Counted from the stretch's first letter, positions 1 to 17,000 are shown. The stretch is DNA of 64,000 nucleotides from an uncultured Pseudomonadota bacterium (GCA_949298065.1 CASFUZ010000001.1:18793-82792); one strand, 5' to 3'. The notes: a model not told the origin generated them from the sequence alone. Numbers and translations are program-made.

Positions 1-1698
1 TCCGTAACCATTGCCATCTCGGTCTTAATTTCGGCCTTGGTTGCCTTAACGCTGACGCCGTCTTTGTGTGCGCTGATAATCAAGCCGCATAAAGAAGGTC
101 ATGAGCCCGCAAGATTTTTCCGTTGGTTCAACGCCTTTTTTGACAAAGTAACCGAATGGTACTTAAGCGGCGTAAAGCTATTTCTGCGTTGTCGCAAAAC
201 GGCGATATTATGCTTTATCGGCGTTTTGTTAGGTATATGGGGGTTGTTTAAGATTGTCCCCGGTGGTTTGGTCCCGATGGAGGATATGGGTAATCTGTTG
301 ATGGCTTATGATATGCCGCCGGCATCATCACTGCCGAGAACCGAGAAATTTACGGATGCTGTTTCTTCAGAAATCCTAAAGGATAAAGATGTCGCGGATG
401 TCTTAACCATTAATGGCTACAATATTTTGTCTTCTTCGCAAAATACTTATTCCGGTGTAAGTTTCATCACCTTGCAAGATTGGGATAAGAGAGAAGGTGC
501 TGCCAACTCCGCCTCAACTTTAGCAAACGTATTTACACGAATTGGCACCAGTCGTCCGGATGGTATTGGCTATGCGTTCAGTATGCCGCCGATTACGGGC
601 TTGAGTATGACGGGTGGCTTTGAAGGCTATATTCAAAACCGTGCGGGTAAAACCTCAGAGGAGCTGATGAACAAAGTTAACGAGTTTATCGCCGCCGCTG
701 AAGAAAATCCGGCATTGCAAAATGTTAAAACCACGTTTTCGGTTTCAACGCCGCAGTATCGGATTGATTTGGACAGAGAAAAAGCGCGTATACTTAATGT
801 TTCCATCAATGCCATTTACGCCGTGTTGCAGTCAACATTTGGCAGTATGTATGTCAATGACTTTACCTACATGGGGCGCAACTTCCGTGTAACCTTGCAG
901 TCAGAGGATAGATTCCGCCGCACACCGGATGACTTGCGCTATGTTTACGTTAAGTCAAATAATGGCGAGCTGATTCCGATAAGCACTTTGATAACGGTTG
1001 AGCGCGTAACCGGACCTGAACTGGTCAACCGCTTCAATATCTTTCCGGCAGCCAAGATTATGGGCGACCCCGCACCGGGATATAGCTCGGGTCAGGCAAT
1101 TCAGGCGATGGAAGATGTCGCTAAGCAAGTGTTAGGCAATGATTATTCTTTGGCATGGGTTGGTTCAGCTTATCAGGAGAAATTGGCAGGAGGCGCAAGC
1201 ACACAAGCTTTTGCCTTTGGTTTAATAATGATTTTCCTGATTTTGTCGGCGCAGTATGAAAAATGGTCTTTGCCTTTTGTGGTTTTGCTTTCCGTACCTT
1301 TTGCGGTTTTGGGAGCTTTGCTTGCCGTATGGTTAAGAGGTATTGAGAACGACCTTTACTTCCAAGTCGGTCTGGTAACCTTGATTGGTTTGGCGGCCAA
1401 GAACGCCATCCTGATTGTGGAATTTGCCGTAATGAAGGTTGAGGAAGGCTTAAGTTATGCAGAAGCAGCGGTTGAGGCCGCCAAGCTGCGTTTCCGCCCG
1501 ATTGTCATGACCTCTTTGGCCTTTACCTTCGGTGTGTTGCCTTTGGCAGTCTCTACGGGAGCCGGCGCGGCCAGCCGTCATGCTATCGGTACGGGGATGA
1601 TTGGTGGTATGATATTATCAACCTTTGTGGCAACCTTGTTCGTTCCGATGATGTTTGCCATCATCGGCGAAGCTTTTGCACCTAAGAAGAAAGGATAG
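1..1698 (+). CDS. Multidrug efflux RND transporter permease (AcrB/AcrD/AcrF family), C-terminal part; the 5' end is cut off by the window start
   Basis: The frame is open from nt 1. The translation shows the RND periplasmic porter subdomains followed by the C-terminal TM bundle (FGLIMIFLILSAQYEKWSLPF..., VGLVTLIGLAAKNAILIVEF, MTSLAFTFGVLPLAVSTGAGAASRHAIGTGMIGGM), which is a typical AcrB C-terminus. Confidence 0.85.
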   Translation, partial: SVTIAISVLISALVALTLTPSLCALIIKPHKEGHEPARFFRWFNAFFDKVTEWYLSGVKLFLRCRKTAILCFIGVLLGIWGLFKIVPGGLVPMEDMGNLLMAYDMPPASSLPRTEKFTDAVSSEILKDKDVADVLTINGYNILSSSQNTYSGVSFITLQDWDKREGAANSASTLANVFTRIGTSRPDGIGYAFSMPPITGLSMTGGFEGYIQNRAGKTSEELMNKVNEFIAAAEENPALQNVKTTFSVSTPQYRIDLDREKARILNVSINAIYAVLQSTFGSMYVNDFTYMGRNFRVTLQSEDRFRRTPDDLRYVYVKSNNGELIPISTLITVERVTGPELVNRFNIFPAAKIMGDPAPGYSSGQAIQAMEDVAKQVLGNDYSLAWVGSAYQEKLAGGASTQAFAFGLIMIFLILSAQYEKWSLPFVVLLSVPFAVLGALLAVWLRGIENDLYFQVGLVTLIGLAAKNAILIVEFAVMKVEEGLSYAEAAVEAAKLRFRPIVMTSLAFTFGVLPLAVSTGAGAASRHAIGTGMIGGMILSTFVATLFVPMMFAIIGEAFAPKKKG

Positions 1699-1702
1699 AG
1701 AA

Positions 1703-2014
1703 ATGACCCAAGCCATTATTCTGACTATGGTAAACAGCAAAGAGCAGGGAAAACTGATTGCGCATAATCTGGTTGAGGCAAAACTGGCTGCTTGCGTTAA
1801 TATTATAGAAAAAGTCACTTCGGTTTATTGGTGGCAAGGAAAAGTTTGCGAAGAGCCGGAGCTTTTGCTGATAATAAAAACCGAGTCTGCAAACTTTGCC
1901 GAGGTCAAGGAACGAATACTCAGTCTGCACGAATATGAACTGCCAGAGGTCATAATGTTTAACATAGACAAAGGCTATGATGAGTATTTGAAATGGATAA
2001 CAGCCAATAGCTAA
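1703..2014 (+). CDS. cutA: Divalent-cation tolerance protein CutA
   Basis: About 104 aa and CutA1-like (MTQAIILTMVNSKEQG...LAACVNII...SVYWWQGKV..E.E..L..KT). An ATG at 1703 follows an RBS-like AAGGATAGAG, and the upstream in-frame Met overlaps the acrB end. A rho-independent terminator follows the gene. Confidence 0.75.
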   Translation: MTQAIILTMVNSKEQGKLIAHNLVEAKLAACVNIIEKVTSVYWWQGKVCEEPELLLIIKTESANFAEVKERILSLHEYELPEVIMFNIDKGYDEYLKWITANS

Positions 2015-2553: not shown

Positions 2554-3012
2554 ATGCCCATGATATTCATAAAATCTCGTCAACGCCGCGAAAAAAGAAA
2601 ACGCATCATAAAAACACTGTCGGTAGTGCTTGCTGCAGTGCTATTTTCGGTTGTTGTGTCATATTTGTTTTTGTCAGGATTTAATTATCTGGAAACTTGG
2701 CTCGGCTGGAAGAAAAATATTATTGCCGGTTTAATAACAGGCCTGATGGCTTGCTGGTGCCTGTTGGGGGTAATTATCCGTTATACGGCGCAAAATAAGT
2801 ATCATAAGTTTTATGATAAATTATCTTTGGGTGTATATGGCTTTTTGTTTGTAGGGCTGATTGTTGCTTTCTTCCTGAACTTTGGGGCAGGGATAGGCAT
2901 AAGTTTTTTGTGTTTGAGCTTGGCAGAAAGCGGTTGGGTTTGGTGGCATCAGGCGGATAAAGGCGCAAGGAAGAGATTGAAACGCCGCCTGCCATGGATT
3001 TTTTATCGTTAA
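2554..3012 (+). CDS. Hypothetical integral membrane protein (about 4 TM helices)
   Basis: Basic N-terminus (KSRQRREKRKR), then four hydrophobic segments. I chose the start at MPMIF (2554) because the longer ORF from 2434 would run through the terminator-like hairpin. Confidence 0.5.
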   Translation: MPMIFIKSRQRREKRKRIIKTLSVVLAAVLFSVVVSYLFLSGFNYLETWLGWKKNIIAGLITGLMACWCLLGVIIRYTAQNKYHKFYDKLSLGVYGFLFVGLIVAFFLNFGAGIGISFLCLSLAESGWVWWHQADKGARKRLKRRLPWIFYR

Positions 3013-3019
3013 AATAAAC

Positions 3020-3046
3020 CAAAGCCCCTCAGCGAGGGGCTTTGAA
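3020..3046. terminator. Bidirectional terminator between convergent genes
   Basis: Hairpin gcccctcAGCgaggggc at 3024-3040, flanked by T/A runs on both strands. Confidence 0.65.
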
Positions 3047-3054
3047 ATATAAAA

Positions 3055-3669
3055 TTACAAGTCGGCAATCACGCTCATACTGATAATCTCATCAGGGTCA
3101 TAAACCGCGCCGTTCGGGCCTTCGCCGAGTTTGATGAGGTCAACAAACTCCATACCGGAAGTAACTTCGCCCCAAACCGTATATTGTCCGTCCAACCAAG
3201 GACAATCGGCAAAGCAGATAAAAAATTGGCTGTCGCCGGAATCAGGGTTCATTGCGCGAGCCATAGAAACCGTGCCGCGCTTGTGCGGGTTGCGGTTAAA
3301 TTCAGCCTTGAGCTTATGCCCGGTGCCGCCCGTGCCGTTGCCGTAAGGACAACCGGTTTGCGCCATAAAGCCGTCAATAACACGATGAAACTTAAGACCG
3401 TTATAAAAACCGGCACGAACCAATTCCTTAATCCGAGCTACATGGTTTGGCGCATCATTAGGATACATCTCAATAATTACATCACCGTCTTTGAGTTTGA
3501 GCAAAAGGGCGTTTTCCGCATCCTTAACTTTGTAGGAATGCTTGATTTTCTTAGCTCTCGTTTTGCTGACGGAAAGTTTTTTTGTTTCATTAGCTTTCAG
3601 GCTCTTGGTTGAAGGCTTGCTAAGCTTTTTAGCCTCATCATTTTTAAGCATTTTTGTTTCTTTCGCCAT
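3055..3669 (-). CDS. Cyclophilin-type peptidyl-prolyl cis-trans isomerase with a roughly 50-aa lysine-rich N-terminal extension
   Basis: Core motifs FHRVIDGFMAQTG...GTGG...SMARAMNPDSGDSQFFICF...WLDGQYTVWGEV. The N-terminus MAKETKMLKNDEAKKLSKPSTKSLKANETKKLSVSKTRAKKIK lies in frame upstream of the core with no alternative internal start. It is the last gene of a six-gene minus-strand cluster. Confidence 0.8.
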   Translation of the reverse strand: MAKETKMLKNDEAKKLSKPSTKSLKANETKKLSVSKTRAKKIKHSYKVKDAENALLLKLKDGDVIIEMYPNDAPNHVARIKELVRAGFYNGLKFHRVIDGFMAQTGCPYGNGTGGTGHKLKAEFNRNPHKRGTVSMARAMNPDSGDSQFFICFADCPWLDGQYTVWGEVTSGMEFVDLIKLGEGPNGAVYDPDEIISMSVIADL

Positions 3670-3682
3670 AATTCATTCTCCG

Positions 3683-4120
3683 TTAATAAACAATCTCAGA
3701 AAAGTATTCATTATTAATATAGTTATCAATAGCGCGTTTTGCATAATCTGAAATATTATCAGGCAGTGCGTTGAGTGCAAACCAATGCAAATCAGAGCAT
3801 TTGTCAGGTTCGGTTATTTGTGGTTGACCGCTGAATTTTTTAGTAACCAAAACATATTCTATGGATTGCCAGTTCCAAGGCGTAATTCTGTGCATGGCAG
3901 AAACAATGTCTAAATCTGCTTCAGCAACATTTAAGGTCGTTTCTTCCATAATCTCGCGGCGTGCAGCTTGTTTGACCGTTTCGCCGTCTTCCATACAACC
4001 GCCGGGCAGAGAATATTTTTCGCTGTCAAACTTGTTTTTGCGCAAGGTCATAAGAATTTCGTTTTTTTCATTAAGGATAATGTTTAAAACCCCGCCGATG
4101 AGTTTGAAACGCTCGCTCAT
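3683..4120 (-). CDS. NUDIX hydrolase
   Basis: Nudix box GGCMEDGETVKQAARREIMEETTL. It overlaps the upstream HD gene by 4 nt. Confidence 0.8.
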   Translation of the reverse strand: MSERFKLIGGVLNIILNEKNEILMTLRKNKFDSEKYSLPGGCMEDGETVKQAARREIMEETTLNVAEADLDIVSAMHRITPWNWQSIEYVLVTKKFSGQPQITEPDKCSDLHWFALNALPDNISDYAKRAIDNYINNEYFSEIVY

Positions 4121-4743
4121 TTTTCCTCCTTAATGCCTAAAACCTCATAAATATCTTTACCGCATTTAGCATCAAAATATGCTTTGAGCTCATATAGGCG
4201 TTTAATAATTGGAGCAATTTTTTCCGGCAAAATATGATATCTTTTACTGATACTATCCATTCTATACTCAATACTGCAGGTTTTGCCCATATCATTCATC
4301 ACATCAGCCAGCTGGATAAGCCTGTCATAGTCATCATATTCAATATTGGCTAAATATCTCTTGGCCTCTAAGAGTTGCTCTTTGTTTTGCGGATAAGTGT
4401 TGATGTCAAAATCTTTATTATAAAAACAATGCGTAACCGAGATTTTTGCAATCTCCGGCAGATTTTTTTCCATCAGATAATGATAACCGATAATCCCGTG
4501 AAAAGTGTTGCCTCTGGGTTCATCCTCAATTCTGCCGGCATCATGCAAAAGACCAAAAATATAGGCTTTATCAGTGTCCAAATCAGAACAATTTGCCGCA
4601 ATTGTTTCGGCAATACGTGCCACAGCAGCACAATGCGCCCGAAAAGTTTCCTCCATATCTCCTTCAAAAGGAAGCTTGCTGGCGTTCCTTTGGGCGACAA
4701 CTTCTTCAAATAAGTCTTGTGCTTGTTTTCTGGTTAAGTCCAT
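4117..4743 (-). CDS. HD-domain phosphohydrolase
   Basis: H...HD metal-binding signature (RAHCAAVARIAE...GLLHDAGR). About 208 aa and coupled on both sides by overlap or 1-nt spacing. Confidence 0.65.
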   Translation of the reverse strand: MDLTRKQAQDLFEEVVAQRNASKLPFEGDMEETFRAHCAAVARIAETIAANCSDLDTDKAYIFGLLHDAGRIEDEPRGNTFHGIIGYHYLMEKNLPEIAKISVTHCFYNKDFDINTYPQNKEQLLEAKRYLANIEYDDYDRLIQLADVMNDMGKTCSIEYRMDSISKRYHILPEKIAPIIKRLYELKAYFDAKCGKDIYEVLGIKEEK

Positions 4744-4744
4744 T

Positions 4745-5740
4745 TTACTTTCCTGCCTTGTTTAAGACATAATCCACGCGCTCTTCGGGAGAAAGTTTCT
4801 TAGGATAATACTTATCAATTTTTTTCAAAATTTGCGCCAAACCTTTGCCGTTGGCAATCTGAATTGCCAAACCGGGGCGAGCATTCAGTTCAAGCATCAT
4901 CGGCCCTCTAAATTCATCAAGGACGATATCTGCACCCAAATATCCCAAGCCAGTCATTTCATAACCCTTGGCGGCAATGAGCAAATGCTCGCGCCAGAAG
5001 GGAACTTCCAAAGTAGAGAGGTCAGCATTTGTATCCGGATGAAATTCTATCGGCATATTCCACATAACGCCTTTAAGGCTTTTTCCGGTCTTAATATCCA
5101 AGCCAACCCCGACAGCACCTTGGTGTAGGTTAGCACGCCCGCCTGATGCTTTGGTGGAAAGGCGCATCATAGACATAGCCGGATAACCTTTATAAACAAT
5201 AACACGCACATCCGGCACACCCTGATAGCTATATTCCGAAAAAATCGGGCTAAAATGCACCAATTCCTCAATCAAAGCCACATCATATTGTCCGCCCAAG
5301 CTGTATAATCCGCTCAAGATATTTGAGATGTGTTGGTAAACTTCATTAAAGGTCAAGAGCCTGCCCGAGGTTGTTTCAAATTCGGTTGGTGTATAACGTT
5401 TGATAACCAAAACACCTTTGCCGCCGCTGCCATGTGCCGGCTTAACCACAAATTCTTTGAAACCCTTAACAATCTCTAACAGGTTTTTAACCTCATTCTG
5501 CACGGAAACCACGCCGATAAGGTGAGGGGTAGTAATACCGACTTTCTGTGCCAAAAACTTGGTCTGAACCTTGTCATCAACCAAAGGATAAAGGCGGCGA
5601 TTGTTGTATTTTGAAATCACATTAAAATTACGCCTATTCATACCGAGCACACCGGCTTTCCTGAGCTCAGACGGAGAGGCAAAATTTTTCAGCCAGCCGA
5701 AACCAAACATCTCACTATCCTTTCTTAACCAAGGGTGCAA
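4745..5740 (-). CDS. RimK-family ATP-grasp alpha-L-glutamate ligase-like protein
   Basis: ATP-grasp fold motifs (VVKPAHGSGGKGV, ELNARPG). The start is more likely the ATG at 5710 (MFGFGW..., preceded by an AAGAAAGGATAG RBS) than 5740, which overlaps the upstream gene. Confidence 0.8.
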   Translation of the reverse strand: MHPWLRKDSEMFGFGWLKNFASPSELRKAGVLGMNRRNFNVISKYNNRRLYPLVDDKVQTKFLAQKVGITTPHLIGVVSVQNEVKNLLEIVKGFKEFVVKPAHGSGGKGVLVIKRYTPTEFETTSGRLLTFNEVYQHISNILSGLYSLGGQYDVALIEELVHFSPIFSEYSYQGVPDVRVIVYKGYPAMSMMRLSTKASGGRANLHQGAVGVGLDIKTGKSLKGVMWNMPIEFHPDTNADLSTLEVPFWREHLLIAAKGYEMTGLGYLGADIVLDEFRGPMMLELNARPGLAIQIANGKGLAQILKKIDKYYPKKLSPEERVDYVLNKAGK

Positions 5741-7250
5741 AACGCTTGAGCTCGGTCAGTCTGTATCCCGTATAAGTACCTAACAGCATAACAATGAACA
5801 AGATAACCAGATTAAGCTCGTTGAATGCGAACATAATATGGCGGATATACTCGTTACAAATGACGAAATAGGTAATAATGGCAACCAAAATGCTGAAAAC
5901 AATTTCTTTGGTCGCGTTCATAGCACCGTCTTCTTCCCAAGTAATTGAGGCACGCTCAATAATCCATGCCGTAATAATAATCGGGAAAAATACGGCGGAA
6001 GCAGCAATGTCAAGTTTGAGCTGATAACCGCAGATTGTTAAGGCCTGCATCATCAAAATCACCACAATCACAACCGCCGAGATTCTCGGAACCAACAGCA
6101 AGTTCAGTTTAGAGAGCAGGGCTCGGATAAGCAGTCCGATAAAGATGATGAAAGAAAAGCAAATTAAGCCGGACCAAAAACCGGTCTTAACCAAAGCCAT
6201 AGAAATCAGCATCGGCGTAAAAGTTCCCATTGTCTGCACGCCGATAACATTGCGCATTAAGACAATAATCAAAATAGCCAGAGGGAAAATCATCAGCCAT
6301 TTAAGTGTATTTTGCTCAGCCAAAGGCAAGCTATAGATAGAAAAATCAAACCAAGTGGTTTGGTTAGCAAGCTTTGCTCTATGGCGTGCCAAATTAAAGG
6401 AAGAGCTGATAGATTTTAGTACAGAATATTTAACAACGGAATCTTCTCCGCCCTCAACATCAAGCAAAGAATCTCCGCCGCGCTGAATAACCACAAAGTC
6501 TTCAGGCAAGCCTTTTTTGCCGGTCTTGAGGCTATAAAGTGTCCATCTTCCTTCCGTATAAGCCTCAATCATCAAATCCGGCGTAAAGGATTTTTTGTTT
6601 TCTTCCAGCTTAATACCGCGTACCAAACGAGTCGGCACATTTTTAAGAGCTAGGAGGTTCATTGTGGCTTCCGCAATGTCTTTTTGCTTCTTTTTCATCG
6701 GCAAAAAGGCCAAAACCGTAGCATCAGGCGGTGTTTGGTTTAGAAGGCGAATAACCTGTTGTGGCAGATTACCCGGTTGTTTAGCGGAAAGTTCCAAAAG
6801 CTCTTTGGCAACAGCCATTTTTTGCTCGTCAAAAATCGGTTTTTCAGGGTTGGACGGAACGGGAGCGGGAATTTTGCCTCGGCCATCTTCATTATCAAAC
6901 AACAAAATCCGATAATAAAGCTGCTGTTTTTCTTCTCTTGGAGCTGATGACAAAACAATGCGGTTTTCCTTTGTGTCTTTGCTAACCTTATAACCTTCAG
7001 CCACAACATCTTCATCAAGAATCTTATATTCTTTACTGACTTTTGGGGTAGTTAAGGAAACTTTGATTGGCTCTCCCGTTGGCATAAAGTTGATTTGAGC
7101 CTCTATCGTCCACACGGTTGTAGATTTTTTAGGAGCCCAATCAAAACCCCAATAGCGAATTTTATAATAAATGCTATATGCGGCAAAACAAACGGACAAA
7201 ATCAGACCGATTGTCAAAATAAAGCGAACGGAAGTAAATTTTTTAAGCAT
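5715..7250 (-). CDS. Inactive-transglutaminase domain fused to a 7-TM module (7TM_transglut / Transglut_i_TM-type)
   Basis: One N-terminal TM, then a roughly 300-aa extracytoplasmic domain, then seven C-terminal hydrophobic helices. It sits between the retropepsin-like and RimK-like genes, as in the described conserved neighbourhood. Confidence 0.65.
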   Translation of the reverse strand: MLKKFTSVRFILTIGLILSVCFAAYSIYYKIRYWGFDWAPKKSTTVWTIEAQINFMPTGEPIKVSLTTPKVSKEYKILDEDVVAEGYKVSKDTKENRIVLSSAPREEKQQLYYRILLFDNEDGRGKIPAPVPSNPEKPIFDEQKMAVAKELLELSAKQPGNLPQQVIRLLNQTPPDATVLAFLPMKKKQKDIAEATMNLLALKNVPTRLVRGIKLEENKKSFTPDLMIEAYTEGRWTLYSLKTGKKGLPEDFVVIQRGGDSLLDVEGGEDSVVKYSVLKSISSSFNLARHRAKLANQTTWFDFSIYSLPLAEQNTLKWLMIFPLAILIIVLMRNVIGVQTMGTFTPMLISMALVKTGFWSGLICFSFIIFIGLLIRALLSKLNLLLVPRISAVVIVVILMMQALTICGYQLKLDIAASAVFFPIIITAWIIERASITWEEDGAMNATKEIVFSILVAIITYFVICNEYIRHIMFAFNELNLVILFIVMLLGTYTGYRLTELKRFAPLVKKG

Positions 7251-7275
7251 AGAGGCACCTTAAGAATGCAAGGGT

Positions 7276-7815
7276 TTAGTGAAGTGTGTTTTCCAAAGCC
7301 GTATCCACAATGGCACGTCCGGTCAAAATGTTACGACCGATGAGGACTTGATATTCAAATTTTTCACGGTTAGCAAGAGAAAACTCTGCAGAGATAATTT
7401 CGTTGCCAAGCTTAACGTCCAACATAACAATTTGACGTTTTTCATGCTTGTTAATACGAACAATGCTTGTTTGGCGAACCAATTCTTTTTCAAAATGATG
7501 AGTTTCTCCCGTATCTTTATTAACAATAGTAAAGGAAACCCATTTTTCGCCGTCGCGCTCAAAGGTTTTGAGGTTTGAAACATCAATAGAAGAAGTTTCG
7601 GCACCTGTATCAATACGAGCAGCCAAAGGTGCCTTCATCGGCAGAACATAGACAGGTTCAACCGCTCCGATAACACCTAAAGAATGTCTCATCTTATGAT
7701 GTTTCGGTGTCTCAATTTCTGCCGGAGGAACAATCGCCGGAGTAATATTCGGAGTTTTACAAGCGCTACACATGGCAACAACAATTCCTAAAAACAAAAA
7801 ACTTATATTTTTCAT
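7276..7815 (-). CDS. Retropepsin-like aspartic protease of the RimK-associated family (annotated in databases as 'ATP-dependent zinc protease', PF05618-like), probable lipoprotein
   Basis: Signal peptide with Cys (VVAMCSAC). Catalytic motif ARIDTGAETSSID (D-T-G-A). First gene of the cluster. Confidence 0.65.
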   Translation of the reverse strand: MKNISFLFLGIVVAMCSACKTPNITPAIVPPAEIETPKHHKMRHSLGVIGAVEPVYVLPMKAPLAARIDTGAETSSIDVSNLKTFERDGEKWVSFTIVNKDTGETHHFEKELVRQTSIVRINKHEKRQIVMLDVKLGNEIISAEFSLANREKFEYQVLIGRNILTGRAIVDTALENTLH

Positions 7816-7982
7816 AGTCTTACCGCATATCTTTCAAAACACATTTATCTTTGCTATTTACAAACAAAACGCACCAAAAGTAAAGCTAAAATAACAACTT
7901 CTGCATAGATTTTTTTAATGATTTTTACAGATTCTTGTGCTATATTTTAAACATTAATCAGCAACAAGAATAGGTTAGGGAT

Positions 7983-8900
7983 ATGGCAACAATAACACCA
8001 CAAGAGCGAACAAAAAATCTGAAAAATCGTATTAAGAAGAAAAAAATTGCTTTGCTTAAAAGTGTTAAGCGAATAACGATGTATGTTGCTTTGCAGTGTG
8101 CCGCAACCATTCCCCAACCTGGAAACACTTTGCTTGGCACCCAGGCTGCCAATTCGGCCAACAACACCAAAGAAAATATAACAAAGGAAATTGCGTCTAA
8201 AACAGAGCTAAAAGAAGCTTTAAAGGAACGTAAAGACTGGCTTATTAATGATAATTTTTTTTCAAAAATTACTGAGTATCAAAATATTCTAAAGTCAAAA
8301 TCACCTACAGAAAAGAAAGATTATATTAAGAAGAATTTTTTTGACACGGTATATCCTGTTGGGGGTATTCCCAAAGGTTCAAATTATTGCATTGCAGCGG
8401 CAATGCGTTGCCTTTATGATGTGAACAAAGAAACGGGAGATTTGGAAAAATTTATGCCCGATGGCAATACAAGAGAAGGACATAGTATGGTATCTTGCCC
8501 GATGTTTAAGGAATATATAAAGAAGAATTTTCCGGATTGCATTATTGAAAAACCAAGCAAAGAAGACATAAGTTCCTTGGAAAATGGTGATTTTATACTC
8601 TCTCGCTCCAACAGCCGCAACACAACCAGCGGACTGCATTTTACAACGGTTTATGATGCGCAAAATGGTTTGGAAGCGAGTTTTAATACGGATGGCATCA
8701 GAGCATTCAAACCCGAAAAAATTGCGTGTATTGTGAAGTTTGGAAAAATCATAGACATTTGCTTACAAGAGAAGGTGAAGCAAATGGATGCGCATTCTGC
8801 CTTGCAGGCGATGAAAAGCGGCGTTAAAGATAACAAAGATTATCAGCTCACCGCTATGAACTTTCGCCAAACTTCACAAAAATCATCAGACAGAAGCTAG
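7983..8900 (+). CDS. Hypothetical protein; possible papain-like or C39-like cysteine peptidase fold (weak)
   Basis: No signal peptide and a basic N-terminus. Cys within NYCIAAAMRCLYD and a downstream His (GHSMVSCPMF) resemble a Cys/His peptidase arrangement. I see no recognisable homology beyond that. Confidence 0.4.
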   Translation: MATITPQERTKNLKNRIKKKKIALLKSVKRITMYVALQCAATIPQPGNTLLGTQAANSANNTKENITKEIASKTELKEALKERKDWLINDNFFSKITEYQNILKSKSPTEKKDYIKKNFFDTVYPVGGIPKGSNYCIAAAMRCLYDVNKETGDLEKFMPDGNTREGHSMVSCPMFKEYIKKNFPDCIIEKPSKEDISSLENGDFILSRSNSRNTTSGLHFTTVYDAQNGLEASFNTDGIRAFKPEKIACIVKFGKIIDICLQEKVKQMDAHSALQAMKSGVKDNKDYQLTAMNFRQTSQKSSDRS

Positions 8901-8907
8901 CTGATTT

Positions 8908-10137
8908 TTAGAAGAAGAAGGTTGCGCGCAAGGAAAGGACTGTCGCGTAATCTGACTTCGGGTTTTCTGCCGGATCAATATAGAACTGAACATCAGGCGT
9001 TAAGGTCATCCATTTTGAAAAGCCCCAAGCCCAATAAGCCTCAATCACTTTTTCGGCATCATGAGCAAGCTCGCTACCGACAGCTTCTTCATCAATCTTG
9101 TTATAAGCAAAAGCCAGACCGATTTGGTCAAGCGGGTTACGGTCCAGCGGGTTGTTGTAAACACCACCCAACACCCAAGACTGATTAATTGTTTCCACAT
9201 GTCCCGAAACACCGTTGATTCTGGCAAAGAGGTTGAGTTTTTCACCAAAGTTTTGGGAGAAGTTCAACGACCAGCCATTGGTGGTTTCGTTTTGCTCTTC
9301 AACTGCCGGCATATTATATAACAAAATAGAATATTGTCCAGCACCCAAACCTTTAATATTTGGTGTATAAGAGATAGAACCGAAGGTGGCATAATGCTCT
9401 TCATCTAAGTTATCAAAACTGACGCTCGGGGCATCTACGTTAGAAGCATCTTGCGCACCAAAGACAAAGGTCCAATCAGAGTTAGGCGCAATCTGTACAT
9501 AAGAACCCAGACCGGCTGTTGCATAAGAGGAGCTTGCATTTTGAGATAAGGCGTAGTTAATGAAATTGACTTCTTGGTTGGAGTTATAAGCCGAGCCGTC
9601 AAAATTAGAAAATGGAAATTGTCCGAGCCCGATAGTCAACCAATCCCATTGTCCGCCGAGCTGATAAGTAAAGAGCAATTCATCAAAACTGGTTGTCGGA
9701 TTATCAGAATCATTAATAGGTGTTGCCGCCCCGATATTGCTGTTAAGCTTCTGAGCCTGAATACCGCCATATTTGGTAACACTATAAGCAGCCGTAACCG
9801 TTCCCGTACCATATTCATTTTGAAAAGCGGTCCAAGATGCGGTCGGGTAAATTACAAACTGCTGTGAGGCTTTTTTGCCGCCTGGAGCGCCGCTTTGCAA
9901 CAGATAAGTCATATCAACCGAATAATCAAAGTTATATTCTTTGCTCAAATAATCCTTAAAATCCGTATAATCATCAGCAAATTTTTTGCGCAGTTCTTCA
10001 TTTGCGGCAATACGTTGTTGTACGCTTTTGGTGGCAAAGACATCAGATGAATCCGCAAAAGAAGAGGGGATTATAGCCGCACTGCTGAGCAAGAAAGAAA
10101 GTAAAAATAATTTTCGGTTCATTTCAAGCATCCTCAT
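8908..10137 (-). CDS. Outer-membrane beta-barrel porin-like protein
   Basis: Signal peptide (MNRKLFLLSFLLSSAAIIPSSFA). Composition rich in G, S, T, N, Y and alternating residues. C-terminal ...SLRATFFF ends in the Phe typical of OMPs. Confidence 0.5.
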   Translation of the reverse strand: MRMLEMNRKLFLLSFLLSSAAIIPSSFADSSDVFATKSVQQRIAANEELRKKFADDYTDFKDYLSKEYNFDYSVDMTYLLQSGAPGGKKASQQFVIYPTASWTAFQNEYGTGTVTAAYSVTKYGGIQAQKLNSNIGAATPINDSDNPTTSFDELLFTYQLGGQWDWLTIGLGQFPFSNFDGSAYNSNQEVNFINYALSQNASSSYATAGLGSYVQIAPNSDWTFVFGAQDASNVDAPSVSFDNLDEEHYATFGSISYTPNIKGLGAGQYSILLYNMPAVEEQNETTNGWSLNFSQNFGEKLNLFARINGVSGHVETINQSWVLGGVYNNPLDRNPLDQIGLAFAYNKIDEEAVGSELAHDAEKVIEAYWAWGFSKWMTLTPDVQFYIDPAENPKSDYATVLSLRATFFF

Positions 10138-11009: not shown

Positions 11010-14000
11010 TTAGAATTTATATCCCATACCGGCACTTAGGGCATAACCATCACTCTCTTCCAAGAACTTGTTGGCTTCAAAGTAGAAGTCAAAGCCCTCA
11101 TGCTTATAATCCATACGGAAGGTGAGGATACCGCGGTCGCGTTCGGCATCATAGCTATCCATCTGGTAGCTGCCGACCATTCCGGCAATTCTGGCTCTGG
11201 CGGCCTGATAGGGGTTGTTGAACTCATGATACCATGTTCCGCCGGCGCGCAAGGTCAAATCATTTTCATCTTTAATGCTGAAGGACTTGCGGGCATAAAG
11301 TCCCAAACCGCCTTCAACCGAGAGATTATTAGCCGACTTAACTTCCAAACCGTTCTTTTCTTTAGTGCTGTCTTGATACATACCCAAGACATTAAACTCG
11401 GCAGTCGGTTCCAAAACAACGGCACCCAAGTCAAATTCCTTACGAACTTCATTAGTGATACCATAGTAGTAGTTCTTGGTGTCAGCCTTATTGTCAAATC
11501 CGTCAGCTCTGCGGTTATATTCACCCCAACCGATACCCAAGCGCGGCATAGCAATAGCCTTAAGTCCTTCTGTTGTATAAATCAACGGGGTTAAGACTTG
11601 AGCAATAATTTCATCACGTTCTGAACCATTGTCATAATCACTCTCATATCTCGTGAAGCTTACACCTAAGCCATAACGGAAGTTGCTGTTATATTTGCGG
11701 TCAAACATAGCATAAGCACTCAAAGCTTCGTCTTCATAACCACTCAGCATATCAACATCATTTTGCTCACGATAATCATAGACAAAGTCAAACATCGCCC
11801 GAACATCTTGTGCACTTTGGTTAGCAAACAAAGTTTGGCTCATATGGCGGTTAACAGCCTTCACAATATCCATATTTTGCTTAGCAAAGCTCGGAACAAT
11901 ATCCAGCCCCATCTGACCGGCAACCGCAGCCGTGAAAGAGCTGGCGTCGGGAGCCGATTTCAGAATACTGTACATATCCATGTTGGTTCCCAACGTATAA
12001 TTGTTGGTCAGGAAGTTTGCCACACTGCTATTGTCAACGACATCGGAAAATTCCTTCATTATCATCACAACGTCCTGATTACCGTCTTCATTTGTAACCA
12101 GATATGCGTCAAAGAGGTAAGAACCCGAGCTCAGCTTGAGCCCCGCGTCGGTACCGATAAACGAATCCTCATTAACATAGGTAGTTTTGTTGCCTTCCAT
12201 AACAATATCGGCAGAAGCTGTTACAGGACCTGAATGCTCAGGAGCAATGTAAGAACCTTTGGGCGCAAGCACGAATGTCCCGCTGTTGGCCGCAGACATA
12301 AGGTTAAAGTTAAGCGCGCTTGTCGAGATGACTTGTCCGCTATTAACAAACGTAGCCCCATTTGCAACCTGAATAAAATTACCGCAGCCGGCAGCCGTAC
12401 AACCAGTATTGTCTGTATCAGGGTTAGTGCTTGAAGAAGCCCCCGGATATTCTGTTGAAATAGAAGCCCCGTTCAAGATAATATTGCCATAGTTGGTAAT
12501 AGAACTTCCACTACCTGTTGCATACATACCGACAGCATTAGTTCCATTTACATTGATGGTAGCGCCGGCAGCATTAACCAGAGAAGCCCCGCTAGAAGCA
12601 TACATACCATAAGAAGTTCCGCTACTACTTCCCGTAACCGTAATAGTTCCAGAGTTTGTCGCCGTTCCGCTACCTGTTACAAACATACCGGTAGCATTTG
12701 CAGTTGTACCATTTACACTAATGCTAGATTCAGCAGAGTTAACCAGAGAAGCCCCGTTAGAACCATACATACCATAGGAAGTTCTGCTATCTTTTCCCGT
12801 AACCGTAATAGTTCCAGAGTTTGTCGCCGTTCCGCTACCATTCAAAACTATACCATAGGCTTGCCCATCAGAAACAGAGATATTATTTCTGTTTAGGACA
12901 GTTCCGCCTGTACTGTACATACCATATGAAATTCCGTTACCCGAACCAGTAATGGTTAAAGCTCCATCATTTGTCAAACCACCACCATACAAGCCATAGG
13001 ATGTTCCGTTACCGGTAAGATTAAGGTTAATATTGCCACCATTTGTGAGTATGCCGCCATTATTCATATTGATACCATATCCTTGTGCGGCACTAACAAT
13101 AATGTCAGACATATTACTAACATAATTACCATTACTGAAAATACCATAGGAATAACCGGCACCAGAACCTGTAACACTAATTTTGCCACCGGTAGTATTA
13201 ATAACTCCGCCATACATACCATAAGAAGTTCCGTTCCCCATTCCCGTAACCGTAATGTTTCCGCTATTTGTAAGAGTCCCGTCACCTGTTGCATACATAC
13301 CAGTAGCATTAGCCGCATTTACACTGATGGTACCCCCGGCAGAGTTAACCAGAGAAGCCCCATTTGAACCATACATACCATAAGAAGTTCCGCTGTCTGT
13401 TCCGGTAAGCGTAATTCTTTCTTTGTTTGTGGCAGTTCCACTACCGTTCAATGCAATACCATATCCTTGCTCTGCTGAAACATCGATTTCTGAAGAGTTT
13501 TGAACCGTTCCTCCTGTACTATATATACCATAGGCAGTTCCATTTGCTGTTCCGCTGGCAGTTCCGGTAACTTTTATTACACCGCCATTAGTCAAACTAC
13601 CGCCATACAAACCATAGGATGTCCCGCTTCCCGTAAGATTGAGCGTAATATCTCCACTATTTGTAAGAGTTCCGCTACCATTCATGTTAATACCATAACC
13701 TTGCGCGGCATTAACAATAATGTCAGACTGATTGCTAACATTACCTCCGGTACCAAAAATACCATAAGAAGCTCCCGTGCCAGTACCTGTAACACTAATT
13801 TGGCCATCAGTTGTATTAATAACGCCGCCATACATACCATAAGCAGAAAGTCCTCTAACTGTTATATTTCCTCTATTATTTTGTTGTACAGCAGAAGAAG
13901 AGTAGATACCATAGGCATTACTTTTATCAGAAGAGACATCTATCGTATTAGTGTTGGAAACAGTAATTCCACTGTTTGAATTTGCATAAATACCATAGAC

Positions 14001-17000
14001 ATTATCTGAAGATGTTGAGCCTTTATAATTAACATCAATAGAGCCGGTGTTGGTAATATTTCCGCCGCCCGTTGTGTTTGTAGCATAAATACCTGCAGCA
14101 TTATTTTGAGCGGAGTTAACCGTAAGAGTGCCGGCATTTGTAATTGTACTGTCTGTTGCATAAATAGCAGCAGAAGAGGCTTGCCCGACAGTTATATTGC
14201 TATTGTTCTTGAGCGTACTGTTTGTTGTTCCATACATTGCGTAAGAGCCGGAATAAGAATCACCGATTGATATAGCTTTATTATTTGTTGCCGTGCCACC
14301 GTTAGAAGCAAATAAAGCATAAGCATTATTTGCATTAATTTGAATGGTTCCGTTGTTTGTAATTTCGCTAGCCCCACTGACAGACATAGCTTTTCCCGAA
14401 TTAGACAAGATAATACTTCCGCCGCTGGCATTTTCAGCGGTTCCGCCACTGCCGGAAATAGACAAACCAATACTATTCAAAGCATTAAGCGTAATGGAAC
14501 CGTTGTTTACAAGAGAACCTACTTTAGTGAACAAAGCCGTTGCTCCGCTTTGCAGAACACTAATATTACCAGAATTGGTGATATTTGCGTTTGCGCCATA
14601 CATAGCATAACTTCCTGTTGCGCCATTATTAAGATTTATAGTTCCTGTGTTGGTCAAAGTAGCAGTAACACCGTCAGCAACTTTCATGGCATAAGAATCT
14701 ACGGTATCAACAGTAAGCTTGCCGGAATTTTGTGCAGTACCGCTACCTGTTACATTCATAATTATAGAGTCGGCAAAACTCAAATCAATATCAGCCTGGT
14801 TAATTATTGTACCATTCCGAGTTTGCATCAACACACCAGAGGCCGACATATTAATAACACCGCTAGAGCTGTTGGTAATCTTGCCTTGTTCAGCGTATAA
14901 TGCAATAGAACCGCTGGCGCCTCCGTCTACACTAATCGTACCGCTGTTTGTAAAAGAAGCATTTTGGTTATCAAGCAACACACCGTAAGAATCATCCGAA
15001 TACACGGAAATTGTACCGCTGTTGCTGGATGCCGTGCTTGCTGCCGTACCATCTATCAAAATACCAACATTATTAGTTCCGGAAGCGGCGGTAGATGTAC
15101 CGACATTAATTGTTTTGGTATTCGTTGCATTTCCACCGTTTGCAACATGCATAGCGTTAACATTGCTTGCCGACACGGCGGTATTCAAAGTTCCGTTATT
15201 GGTAATATTCCCCCCCATAGCCTTCATAATATCAGTATCACTCTGATTTAAATTAACAGTACCTGTTGAGGCATTAATAGCATTTCCGCTATTACTTAAG
15301 AAGGCGAGGGAGCCTGTTGCGTTATCGCTAATAGTAATTATACCAATATTTGTAACAGATCCGCCATTACTTTGCAAAGCAACAGAATCTGCAGAATTTA
15401 CATTAATATCCCCCTGATTAGAAGCATTACCTCCGGTAACATTAATACCAACAGAATTAGGAGCTGCAGAATTGTCTGTTCCAATATTAATATCTCCCAG
15501 ATTATAGGCATTTCCACCGGAAACATTCATACCGGTCAGATTACTTCCGCTCAAATTAATAACACCAGAAGCAACATTGTTTAAAGTTCCGCCGGATGTT
15601 CCAATTCCCATTGCGGACATATTGCTACCATTGATATTGATTGTACCATTATTATTGGCCGAGCCACCGTTTGTATAAACGCCAAAGATTTGATTTCCGG
15701 CGTTTGGATTACCAGAGAGAGAAATTGTTGCATTTAAGGCATTAGTAACACTTCCGGAAGAAGTGGAATATAATGCATATAAAGAACCGTTTAGACCGGA
15801 ATTTATAGTAGCAGAAATATTATTTTTGTTTTGAGCATTTGTAACACTTCCTGTTGCATACATGCCATAACCGCCACCGTTTAAGTATATATTATCATTG
15901 TTCGTCAGAGAGCTTCCCCCTGAACCATACATACCATAAGCCCCGGATGCATTAACATTAATCAAGGCATTATTTGTTAAACTTCCGGAGCCGCTTGCAG
16001 ACATACCCTGAGCTCCGGCAGCATTAACGGCAATATAAGTTTTTGTATCTTCAGTATCTGTTCCGTCTTCATTACCGTGAATGGCAGAACCACCACCTTG
16101 TACAGAAAGTCCAACTGAATTTTCACCATCAAGAGTAATATTTCCTGTGTTAAGTAATTTTCCTACAGAAGTAAACATAGCCGTTGAAGAGCTCTGCAAT
16201 ACATCAATGGTAGCAGTATTGGTTATATTGGCACTTTGACCGTACATAGCAAAGGAGTTGCTGCCATCGCCCTCTAAAGTAAACTCACCATTATTAACCA
16301 AGGTAGCTGCAAAACCATCATCAGCCTTGAATCCGTAAGAATTGCTGCCCAGAACATTAATAACGCCGTTTTGTTGGTTTGTAACGGTTCCGGTACCTTG
16401 AATTAAGAAAGCGGTAGAATTATTGCCGTTAACACTAAGAGTTCCGGAATTATCGGCATTATTTGTACCGGAAACGACAATACCTGTAGCATTATCACCT
16501 AAGGCAATAGTTCCTTCATTATAAGTTTGCCCATTAATGGCCTGCATCAATATACCTTCGCCAAACATATTGATGGTACCTTTATTGTATATATCGCCGT
16601 TTTGGGCATATAAAGCAACGGAACCGTCAGCACCTTCCATAATAGATATCGTACCGTTATTAACTAAATCACCGGTATTGTTAATTAGTTTAATTGCATA
16701 AGAATCTTGCGTATAGACATTAATATTACCTTCATTAACAACGGATCCGCCATCCACAAACATACCAATATTATTAGATCCGGTCGCACCATTTCCGGTT
16801 CCCACATTAATTGTTGCATCTGCGGCATTTGTAGCCGTACCTGTTCCTTGGATGTGCATAGCATTAACATTACTCAAATCGCTGTTAATATTAAGCGAAC
16901 CATAATTGGTCAGAGAACCTCCAAGAGATTTCATTAAATCTGTATTGGATTGATTTGAATTAATAATACCGCTTACACCATTAATAGCAGTTCCGCTGTT

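What the first reader, a model, noticed from the sequence alone, without database searches (positions are those of the whole stretch)
3055..7815. Six-gene operon extends the RimK / 7TM-inactive-transglutaminase / retropepsin triad with HD and NUDIX hydrolases and a Lys-tailed cyclophilin
Seen in sequence: six minus-strand genes are packed with gaps of about 25, about 4, 1, -4 and 13 nt. In order they are:
- a retropepsin-like protease (D-T-G-A)
- an inactive-transglutaminase-7TM protein
- a RimK-like ATP-grasp ligase
- an HD phosphohydrolase
- a NUDIX hydrolase
- a cyclophilin with a roughly 50-aa poly-Lys tail

Established knowledge: the first three form a conserved neighbourhood that has been predicted, but not experimentally characterised, to be a membrane-linked peptide-ligation and processing system (ATP-grasp amidoligase plus retropepsin-type protease plus 7TM sensor).

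Inference: the tight co-transcription with two nucleotide hydrolases and a PPIase is not part of the canonical description. It suggests a nucleotide-signal-controlled peptide tagging or processing module, and the Lys-rich tail is a conceivable acceptor or partner for a Glu-adding RimK enzyme. This is the best candidate in the window for an under-described system.
Basis: partly seen in the sequence, partly recalled or inferred. Interest (0 to 1): 0.8.

Follow-up and report, generated by a model that had tools for sequence, protein, structure and literature searches.

The report
Known rloABC operon with local add-ons
The six genes are real, but the first three are the already-described rloABC stress-tolerance operon; the cyclophilin is a neighbour kept only in one group of gut Alphaproteobacteria, and the HD and NUDIX genes are a patchy, dispensable insertion rather than parts of a new system.

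Summary
Six minus-strand genes lie at 3055-7815 with the stated spacing and the stated families.

- **The triad.** The first three genes are rloA-rloB-rloC. This operon was characterised genetically and structurally in Pseudomonas aeruginosa in 2025, so "uncharacterised" is out of date.
- **Distant relatives.** In 59 distant rloABC loci (RloB 32-39% identical, 636 kb) the three-gene order is kept. No cyclophilin or HD relative is present, and the only NUDIX ORF lies 3.7 kb away on the opposite strand.
- **Cyclophilin.** Within the window's own clade of uncultured gut Alphaproteobacteria, the cyclophilin follows rloC in 32 of 33 loci. What lies beyond it varies.
- **The rloC-cyp spacer.** It carries a conserved promoter-like element and has been hit by unrelated insertions.
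- **HD and NUDIX.** They occupy about 1 kb inside that spacer. They occur only in one sub-lineage (3 of 33 RloB-anchored loci). They are absent from a lineage nested inside that sub-lineage, and NUDIX is internally deleted in two sister species.
- **Where HD comes from.** The nearest HD relatives outside the locus sit between mnmG and rsmG.
- **The "Lys tail".** It is an N-terminal basic repeat region, not poly-Lys. The protein ends in ...VIADL, which is not a RimK-type acceptor.

Verdict: a new member of a known operon with lineage-specific accretions. Interest is low to moderate.

The parts
7276..7815 (-). rloA: secreted retropepsin-like aspartic peptidase, with a signal peptide and a possible lipobox (MKNISFLFLGIVVAMCSAC)
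   Evidence: PF05618, E 2e-29. Best NCBIfam match is RloA3, below that model's cutoff. Its best solved-structure match, 9g58_A, carries the residues the paper names for P. aeruginosa RloA at a numbering offset of 20. Against it, D69 aligns with catalytic D48, and R67, R114, R127 and R150 align with the poly-Glu-contacting K46, R92, R114 and R137.
5715..7250 (-). [quoted passage not shown]
   Evidence: PF14400 (E 3e-26) plus PF14402 (E 3e-83). Full-length alignment to the NCBIfam RloB model at 282 bits, which is below that Pseudomonas-specific cutoff. There are 1091 representatives with E<=1e-10.
4745..5710 (-). rloC: cytoplasmic ATP-grasp, alpha-L-glutamate-ligase-like protein (ATG start at 5710; the longest ORF starts at the TTG at 5740)
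   Evidence: TIGR02291, 431 bits against a cutoff of 314. PF14397, E 2e-85. RimK equivalog PRK10446, 21 bits against a cutoff of 331. dN/dS is 0.003-0.006 against sister species.
3745..4743 (-). HD-NUDIX block of about 1 kb, lying inside the ancestral rloC-cyp spacer (approximate boundaries)
   Evidence: In the alignment with L003, which lacks the block, it takes the place of 15 nt of spacer. GC3 is 0.36-0.39, against 0.47-0.50 for rloC and cyp.
4117..4743 (-). HD-domain phosphohydrolase, substrate unknown
   Evidence: PF01966 and PF08668. The invariant H37, H67-D68, H82, H105 and D147 are present. The AlphaFold2 model has pLDDT 96. The nearest folds are SP1746, the PgpH HD domain and YqeK, but only at TM about 0.4 and E>0.01. 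dN/dS is 0.08-0.13.
3683..4120 (-). NUDIX hydrolase, MutT-like, substrate unknown; its start overlaps the HD stop (ATGA)
   Evidence: PF00293, E 3e-19. It is below every NCBIfam equivalog cutoff. The Nudix box GCMEDGETVKQAARREIMEETTL is read directly from the sequence. Its last ~20 codons are read through the ancestral spacer. It carries a 341-nt internal deletion in L002 and L009.
3716..3744 (-). Promoter-like element ATGCAA-N17-TATATT, embedded in the 3' end of the NUDIX ORF about 47 nt upstream of the cyp ATG
   Evidence: The CTAnAT core is invariant in 12 clade spacers whose mean column identity is 54%. TGCAA is kept in most of them. The element falls below the threshold of the generic sigma-70 scan. 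Its function is inferred, not shown.
3055..3669 (-). Cyclophilin-type PPIase with a conserved basic N-terminal extension of about 55 residues (codons at 3505-3669)
   Evidence: PF00160, E 2e-41. The core runs from residue 55 onward. The extension is conserved across 15 clade sequences. It has no signal peptide, which is read directly from the sequence.
3019..3045 (-). Intrinsic terminator closing the gene string
   Evidence: A 12-bp stem with 7 G-C pairs followed by a T-run. It is the only strong terminator-like site on this strand in 2900-8100.
7816..7982 (.). AT-rich divergent intergenic region upstream of rloA, the likely promoter region of the operon
   Evidence: Read directly from the sequence. 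No site scored above background.

Best explanation
**What it is.** The locus is an rloA-rloB-rloC operon of an uncultured gut alphaproteobacterium.

**How it most likely works.** This is by homology with P. aeruginosa.
- The cytoplasmic ATP-grasp ligase RloC, together with the membrane protein RloB, makes or exposes a glutamate-rich (poly-alpha-Glu-type) product.
- The secreted retropepsin RloA trims that product.
- The balance between the two affects envelope integrity and tolerance of osmotic stress.

**The three extra genes are not core components.**
- The cyclophilin is a cytoplasmic PPIase whose position directly after rloC is inherited throughout this clade. It probably has its own promoter as well as read-through from rlo. 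The transcription unit ends at the terminator after it.
- HD and NUDIX are a two-gene nucleotide-hydrolase block that entered the rloC-cyp spacer in one sub-lineage. The NUDIX ORF runs on through the old spacer, and this alone creates the 13-nt gap. The HD gene is probably a copy of a clade-native HD gene that normally sits beside mnmG. The block is functional where it is present, but it is dispensable.

**Shown here:** gene identities, synteny counts, insertion boundaries and the selection regime.

**Inferred:** the biochemical roles, the cyp promoter and co-transcription.
For: **Triad identity.**
- RloA keeps the catalytic Asp and all four pseudosymmetric poly-Glu-binding basic positions of P. 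aeruginosa RloA.
- The genetics and poly-Glu cleavage are reported in PMC12239564.

**Distant loci.**
- 59 loci keep rloA-B-C in order. None has a cyclophilin or an HD relative. One unrelated Nudix-box ORF lies 3.7 kb away on the opposite strand.
- The first two ORFs downstream of rloC in 42 of these loci hit 80 different Pfam families, and no family occurs in more than 3.

**Clade loci.**
- cyp lies directly after rloC in 28 of 33 loci.
- It lies after an HD(-NUDIX) block in 3 and after a 2.8-kb unrelated insert in 1 (L004). It is missing in 1 (L033).
- rloA-B-C is never interrupted.

**HD-NUDIX block.**
- The insertion boundaries, and the NUDIX tail read from the old spacer, are shown.
- NUDIX is deleted in L002 and L009.
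- In trees of the flanking genes, the L003/L021/L026 lineage, which lacks the block, is nested between lineages that carry it.
- HD copies at <=60% identity lie in mnmG-HD(-HD)-PHP-rsmG-parAB.
- dN/dS is 0.07-0.13 for HD and NUDIX, against 0.003-0.006 for RloC.

**Transcription.** The only strong terminator is the one after cyp.
Against: - cyp is linked to rloC far more constantly than to its own downstream neighbour. There are more than 15 different gene clusters at the next position. This is more than simple synteny inertia predicts and could mean a functional tie.
- The rloC-HD-NUDIX-cyp order persists under purifying selection in lineages diverged to 82-85% RloC identity and 66-70% HD identity. 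The block is therefore not a very recent accident.
- No transcript data were available.
- Relatives with RloB 40-53% identical were not sampled.
- The product of RloC is unknown even in Pseudomonas.
Confidence: 0.75

Rival explanations
1. In this gut alphaproteobacterial clade the cyclophilin is a genuine fourth component of the rlo system. For example, its basic [E/D]TKxL-repeat extension might bind the anionic poly-Glu product, or the PPIase might assist RloB or RloC. HD and NUDIX would remain accessory.
For: - cyp is present after rloC in 32 of 33 clade loci, down to 53% RloB identity. The gene beyond cyp is highly variable.
- It lies on the same strand with 40-95 nt spacers that have no terminator hairpin.
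- The only terminator lies after cyp.
- The N-terminal extension is conserved across the clade.
Against: - No cyclophilin lies within up to 10 kb of rloABC in 59 distant loci.
- The spacer keeps a conserved promoter-like element.
- The spacer tolerates insertions, including an opposite-strand gene in L004.
- Linkage is broken in L033.
- The upstream porin is also widely conserved, so local synteny is generally high.
- The cyclophilin is predicted to be cytoplasmic, whereas RloA acts outside the cytoplasm.
Confidence: 0.17
2. All six genes form one functional module in which HD and NUDIX supply nucleotide-signal control of peptide ligation, and the Lys-rich cyclophilin is the acceptor.
For: - The six genes are tightly packed, with an ATGA overlap between HD and NUDIX.
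- The order recurs in diverged contigs L101 and L102.
- There is a loose analogy with RimA, a c-di-GMP phosphodiesterase that regulates RimK in the rim operon (PMC12239564).
- The weak fold neighbours of the HD protein include cyclic-dinucleotide phosphodiesterases.
Against: - HD and NUDIX are absent from 30 of 33 RloB-anchored clade loci and from all distant loci.
- NUDIX is deleted in L002 and L009, and the whole block is absent from the nested L003 lineage.
- The HD family's other home is the mnmG-rsmG cluster.
- The 13-nt NUDIX-cyp gap arises because the ORF reads through the old spacer.
- The protein has no HD-GYP motif, which is read directly from the sequence.
- The Lys-rich region is N-terminal and the C-terminus is ...VIADL.
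Confidence: 0.05
3. HD-NUDIX is a mobile anti-phage or other horizontally acquired cassette that landed by chance beside rloC.
For: - GC3 is lower than in the neighbouring genes.
- NUDIX hits the PADLOC candidate PDC-S07 (41 bits) and phage MutT/NUDIX families.
- The same spacer received a phage tail-fibre-like insert in L004.
Against: - There is no integrase, flanking repeat or close phage relative; the best phage match is about 30% identical.
- The HD protein has no PHROG hit and only marginal Cas3-HD similarity.
- The nearest HD relatives are chromosomal genes of related Alphaproteobacteria.
Confidence: 0.03

Closest known systems
rloABC operon of Pseudomonas aeruginosa (rloA, rloB PA14_41710, rloC PA14_41730; Lormand et al., mBio 2025, PMC12239564)
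   Same: - The three protein families are the same, in the same order, on the same strand and tightly spaced.
- RloA has a signal peptide, the DTG catalytic motif and the basic poly-Glu-binding positions.
- RloC belongs to TIGR02291.
- RloB has both Pfam domains.
   Different: - The host is an uncultured gut alphaproteobacterium. The paper describes the operon as mainly gammaproteobacterial.
- The proteins are only about 30-50% identical to distant homologues and fall below the Pseudomonas-tuned NCBIfam cutoffs.
- A cyclophilin is appended clade-wide, and an HD-NUDIX block in one sub-lineage.
rimABK / RimK-RimB ribosomal protein S6 polyglutamylation system
   Same: An ATP-grasp glutamate ligase is paired with a retropepsin-like peptidase that cleaves poly-Glu. 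In some Pseudomonas the operon also carries a nucleotide-signal phosphodiesterase, RimA.
   Different: - The ligase fails the RimK equivalog model (21 bits against a cutoff of 331).
- The peptidase is secreted, unlike cytoplasmic RimB.
- RloB has no counterpart in rim.
- The HD protein is not an EAL or HD-GYP enzyme and is not conserved with the ligase.
Predicted amidoligase neighbourhood of Iyer, Abhiman, Burroughs and Aravind 2009 (ATP-grasp plus inactive transglutaminase/7TM plus aspartyl peptidase)
   Same: Pfam families PF14397, PF14400 and PF14402 stem from that work (my own knowledge; the paper is cited as ref. 26 in PMC12096838).
   Different: I could not read that paper here. Whether it lists HD, NUDIX or cyclophilin neighbours was therefore not checked.
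YqeK / SP1746 / PgpH-type HD phosphohydrolases and MutT-type NUDIX hydrolases
   Same: - The HD fold has the full H...HD...H...H...D metal-site pattern.
- The Nudix box is intact apart from one Gly-to-Thr change near its end.
   Different: No sub-family cutoff is reached. Fold matches are only TM about 0.4 with E>0.01. Substrates cannot be assigned.

Membership tests
rloABC operon | Retropepsin-like PF05618 peptidase with an N-terminal signal peptide and a catalytic D-T-G | tested here: met
   PF05618, E 2e-29. DTGA at residues 69-72. A hydrophobic N-terminus with Cys residues is read from the sequence. No SignalP run was possible.
rloABC operon | Basic residues lining the substrate channel that coordinate poly-Glu (RloA K46, R92, R114, R137) | tested here: met
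   All four aligned positions are Arg in the window protein (R67, R114, R127, R150). The flap lysines are not conserved.
rloABC operon | [quoted passage not shown] | tested here: met
   PF14400 plus PF14402. It aligns end to end with NF052267, but at 282 bits against a cutoff of 900, which is an 'exception' model tuned to Pseudomonas.
rloABC operon | RloC: ATP-grasp protein of the alpha-L-glutamate-ligase-like family | tested here: met
   TIGR02291, 431 bits against a cutoff of 314.
rloABC operon | Gene order rloA-rloB-rloC on one strand | tested here: met
   Gaps are 25 and 4 nt. The same order is found in all 93 related loci where the genes are present, with one exception, L082.
rloABC operon | Role in hypo-osmotic stress tolerance, with rloB and rloC loss epistatic to rloA loss | not testable with these tools
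   This is a genetic phenotype known only for P. aeruginosa.
RimK (ribosomal protein S6 glutamate ligase) | Match to the RimK equivalog model | tested here: not met
   PRK10446, 21 bits against a cutoff of 331. TIGR00768, 43.5 bits against 143.
RimB | Cytoplasmic retropepsin-like endopeptidase without a signal peptide | tested here: not met
   NF052261, 70 bits against a cutoff of 200. The window protein has a signal-peptide-like N-terminus.
HD-GYP / EAL-type second-messenger phosphodiesterase (RimA analogue) | HD-GYP signature (HHExxDGxGYP) or an EAL domain | tested here: not met
   No such motif is in the sequence. Only the generic HD and HDOD Pfam families match. Bd1817 is only a weak fold neighbour.
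YqeK (Ap4A hydrolase, COG1713) | Sequence or fold match to YqeK | tested here: inconclusive
   There is a weak match to the HD part of the NadD-YqeK fusion model PRK07152 (24.8 bits against 315). YqeK structures 8wmy, 2ogi and 2o08 match at TM about 0.4.
MutT (8-oxo-dGTP diphosphatase) | Match to the MutT equivalog | tested here: not met
   TIGR00586, 48.6 bits against a cutoff of 97.9. The NUDIX superfamily itself is met (PF00293, 69.8 bits against 21.1).
Cyclophilin-type PPIase | Pro_isomerase domain | tested here: met
   PF00160, 142.5 bits against a cutoff of 21.7. The best solved-structure match is 2mvz, E 6e-35, over residues 55-183. The PpiA and PpiB equivalogs are not met (about 76 bits against about 300).

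The most novel reading that the evidence does not exclude
In gut (RF32-like) Alphaproteobacteria the rlo system has become a four-gene unit. Its last member would be a cytoplasmic cyclophilin whose conserved basic [E/D]TKxL-repeat extension binds the poly-glutamate product, or acts as a chaperone for RloC or RloB. In one sub-lineage an HD/NUDIX pair would add nucleotide-dependent control, analogous to RimA in the rim operon.
Probability: 0.12. Interest if true: 0.55.

Novelty: new member of a known kind. Interest (0 to 1): 0.25.

Why it matters
The product and substrate of RloC and RloB are still unknown, even in Pseudomonas. If the cyclophilin link were functional, it would give a testable lead. 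As things stand, the main value is negative. It stops a six-gene "new system" from being catalogued. It shows that tight spacing can arise when an inserted ORF reads through an old intergenic spacer. It also extends the recently named rloABC operon to uncultured gut Alphaproteobacteria.

Tried and rejected
- **RloB homologue search.** The best 120 hits were all at least 62% identical to the window protein, so the search did not reach outside the clade. I replaced it with the representative search and the metagenome scan.
- **Search with the cyclophilin extension alone.** It returned only 16 short clade fragments and says nothing about wider distribution.
- **An HD-NUDIX fusion protein (P0059).** It shares only the Nudix box with the window NUDIX, at 30% identity over 47 residues. 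It is not evidence for an orthologous pair.
- **Generic sigma-70 and terminator scan.** Hit counts were at shuffle level apart from the terminator after cyp. The conserved element upstream of cyp falls below that scan's threshold.
- **Defence and phage origin of HD-NUDIX.** PADLOC, PHROGs and the phage tblastn search gave only generic NUDIX and weak Cas3-HD matches.
- **Fold search of the HD model.** It did not resolve a sub-family.
- **"Recent species-level insertion".** I dropped this first reading of HD-NUDIX after contigs L101 and L102 showed the same order in more diverged lineages.
- **The 2009 Iyer et al. paper.** It is not held in the library.

Full report
**1. Observation**

Six minus-strand ORFs fill 3055-7815.

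| Gene | Coordinates | Family evidence |
|---|---|---|
| Retropepsin-like peptidase | 7276-7815 | PF05618, E 2e-29 |
| Inactive-transglutaminase / 7TM protein | 5715-7250 | PF14400 and PF14402 |
| ATP-grasp ligase | 4745-5740 | TIGR02291, 431 bits against a cutoff of 314 |
| HD phosphohydrolase | 4117-4743 | PF01966 |
| NUDIX hydrolase | 3683-4120 | PF00293 |
| Cyclophilin | 3055-3669 | PF00160 |

- The junction sequences give gaps of 25, 4 (rloC from the ATG at 5710), 1, -4 and 13 nt, as reported.
- Each gene has its own Shine-Dalgarno-like motif.
- The only strong terminator on this strand follows the cyclophilin gene (3045..3019).
- The "poly-Lys tail" needs correcting. The basic region is N-terminal, with 16 Lys in the first 57 residues and no run longer than two. 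It is made of [E/D]TKxL repeats followed by TRAKKIKHSY. The protein ends in ...SVIADL.

**2. The triad is a known, named operon**

- NCBIfam now carries models called RloA1-3, RimB and RloB. These led me to Lormand et al., mBio 2025 (PMC12239564).
- That paper describes rloA, a secreted retropepsin-like peptidase. In vitro it cleaves runs of at least 8 Glu.
- It also describes rloB (inactive transglutaminase plus 7TM, in the inner membrane) and rloC (a cytoplasmic ATP-grasp protein).
- A triple rloA mutant cannot grow in hypo-osmotic medium. It also has defects in biofilm formation, antibiotic tolerance and cell shape. Deleting rloB or rloC suppresses these defects.
- The window's RloA aligns with the solved structure 9g58_A. 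That chain carries the residues the paper names for P. aeruginosa RloA at a numbering offset of 20. The window protein keeps the catalytic Asp and an Arg at all four pseudosymmetric poly-Glu contact positions.
- The ligase is not RimK: it scores 21 bits against a cutoff of 331 on the RimK model.

The statement that the triad is uncharacterised is therefore out of date. The biochemical product of RloC remains unknown.

**3. Where the window comes from**

A scan of one genome per species with RloB returned 14 loci. All are uncultured gut Alphaproteobacteria MAGs from human and animal gut, with RloB 53-99% identical to the window's.

**4. Synteny anchored on the triad**

*Species set.*
- rloA-B-C is followed directly by the cyclophilin gene in 10 of 14 loci.
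- An HD gene lies between rloC and cyp in L001, L002 and L009 only.
- An intact NUDIX gene is present in L001 only.
- L004 has an unrelated 2.8-kb insert between rloC and cyp. It encodes a tail-fibre-like 547-aa protein and an opposite-strand cytidylyltransferase-like gene.

*Metagenome scan.* I used a 50-sequence RloB alignment. It gave 21 further clade loci and 59 distant loci (RloB 32-39% identical).
- Nineteen of the clade loci include sequence beyond rloC. Eighteen of these have cyp directly after rloC, and none has HD or NUDIX.
- L033 has opposite-strand rhodanese and CoA-disulfide-reductase-like genes instead of cyp.
- The distant loci total 636 kb. They keep rloA-B-C but contain no cyclophilin and no HD relative. 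One Nudix-box ORF lies 3.7 kb from rloC on the opposite strand.
- The first two ORFs downstream of rloC in 42 distant loci fall into 80 Pfam families, and no family occurs more than three times.

The general rlo operon therefore has three genes and no fixed downstream partner.

**5. The cyclophilin link**

- A position-by-position tally in the clade shows rloA, rloB and rloC are never separated.
- cyp is the next gene in 26 loci in that tally. Counting interrupted and partial cases, it is present in 32 of 33.
- The gene after cyp belongs to more than 15 different clusters.
- Upstream, a porin and a 305-aa hypothetical gene are also widely kept.

The link is therefore stronger than cyp's tie to its other neighbour. 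It is confined to one clade, and it has been broken or interrupted three independent times. The 40-95-nt spacers have no terminator hairpin. They do share an invariant CTAnAT and, in most, a TGCAA 17 nt upstream of it. I read this as a promoter for cyp. That is an inference.

**6. The HD-NUDIX block**

*Position.*
- Alignment with L003 shows that about 1 kb (roughly 3745-4743) takes the place of 15 nt of the spacer. It begins at the base after the rloC stop codon.
- The last ~20 codons of NUDIX are the old spacer, including the promoter-like element, read in frame as far as a TAA 13 nt before cyp. The tight NUDIX-cyp spacing is a by-product of this.
- L002 and L009 have lost 341 nt from inside NUDIX.

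*Distribution.*
- HD homologues 66-100% identical to the window's are found in the same rloC-HD-NUDIX-cyp order. This includes two diverged contigs with RloC 82-85% and Cyp 88% identity.
- In trees of the flanking genes, the block-free L003/L021/L026 lineage is nested between block-bearing lineages. This implies a loss or a recombinational exchange.
- HD homologues at 60% identity or less lie in mnmG-HD(-HD)-PHP-rsmG-parAB clusters, with no rlo or NUDIX nearby.

*Selection and function.*
- HD and NUDIX are under purifying selection, with dN/dS 0.07-0.13. This is looser than for RloC, at 0.003-0.006.
- GC3 is lower than in the neighbouring genes.
- Function cannot be narrowed. The HD model is confident (pLDDT 96), but its best fold neighbours (SP1746, PgpH, YqeK) reach only TM about 0.4.
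- NUDIX is MutT-like but below every equivalog cutoff.
- There is no convincing signal for a defence system or a phage origin.

**7. Mechanism**

The first three points are inferred by homology and were not tested here.
- RloC and RloB generate a glutamate-rich product.
- Secreted RloA trims it.
- The balance between them affects the cell envelope.
- The cyclophilin is a cytoplasmic PPIase, probably co-transcribed by read-through and also from its own promoter.
- HD and NUDIX are housekeeping-type nucleotide hydrolases that happen to sit in the spacer.
- RimK-type ligases extend a C-terminal Glu. The cyclophilin's basic region is N-terminal and its C-terminus is ...ADL. The acceptor idea therefore has no sequence support. 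An electrostatic interaction with poly-Glu cannot be excluded.

**8. Verdict**

- The six-gene nucleotide-controlled module is not supported.
- This is a new member of the known rloABC kind with lineage-specific accretions.
- Interest is about 0.25. The residual novelty lies in the clade-wide rloABC-cyp block.

Noticed in passing
window 7983-8900 (+): A 305-aa hypothetical protein is transcribed divergently from rloA. It has no Pfam or NCBIfam hit, yet it is conserved at this position in 17 of 30 clade loci. It contains Cys (NYCIAAAM) and His (SGLHFTTVYD) motifs that look like a papain or NlpC/P60-type dyad. That resemblance is unverified.
   Followed up: partly
window 8908-10137 (-); L103 10634-11454: An OprB-family porin is most similar to the chlamydial arginine/agmatine porin AaxA (274 bits, below the cutoff of 600). 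In the near-identical contig L103, a pyruvoyl-dependent arginine decarboxylase and an amino-acid permease (AaxB/AaxC-like) lie on the far side of the AcrAB genes. An aax-like system therefore seems to be split around the rlo region.
   Followed up: no
window 11010-20594 (-): A 3194-aa ORF has hundreds of Gly/Asn/Thr-rich beta-helix-type repeats and a C-terminal beta-barrel-like region. It is presumably a giant autotransporter adhesin.
   Followed up: no
L004 12637-15125: The rloC-cyp spacer of this relative holds a 547-aa phage tail-fibre-like protein, a 123-aa ORF and an opposite-strand cytidylyltransferase-like gene. This is a second, independent insertion at the same spacer.
   Followed up: partly
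L015 6001-7273; L107 276-1519: Related Alphaproteobacteria carry one or two tandem copies of this HD family between mnmG (gidA) and a PHP-domain gene, rsmG and parAB. This conserved placement near the origin-region cluster is unexplained.
   Followed up: partly
window 1655-2014 (+) and 37-1698 (+): The longest cutA ORF, from a TTG start, overlaps the end of the AcrB-type RND transporter gene by 44 nt. The true cutA start is probably further downstream.
   Followed up: no
L046 676-1610: In this metagenome contig, rloC matches in two overlapping pieces. This suggests a frameshift, either a pseudogene or an assembly error.
   Followed up: no
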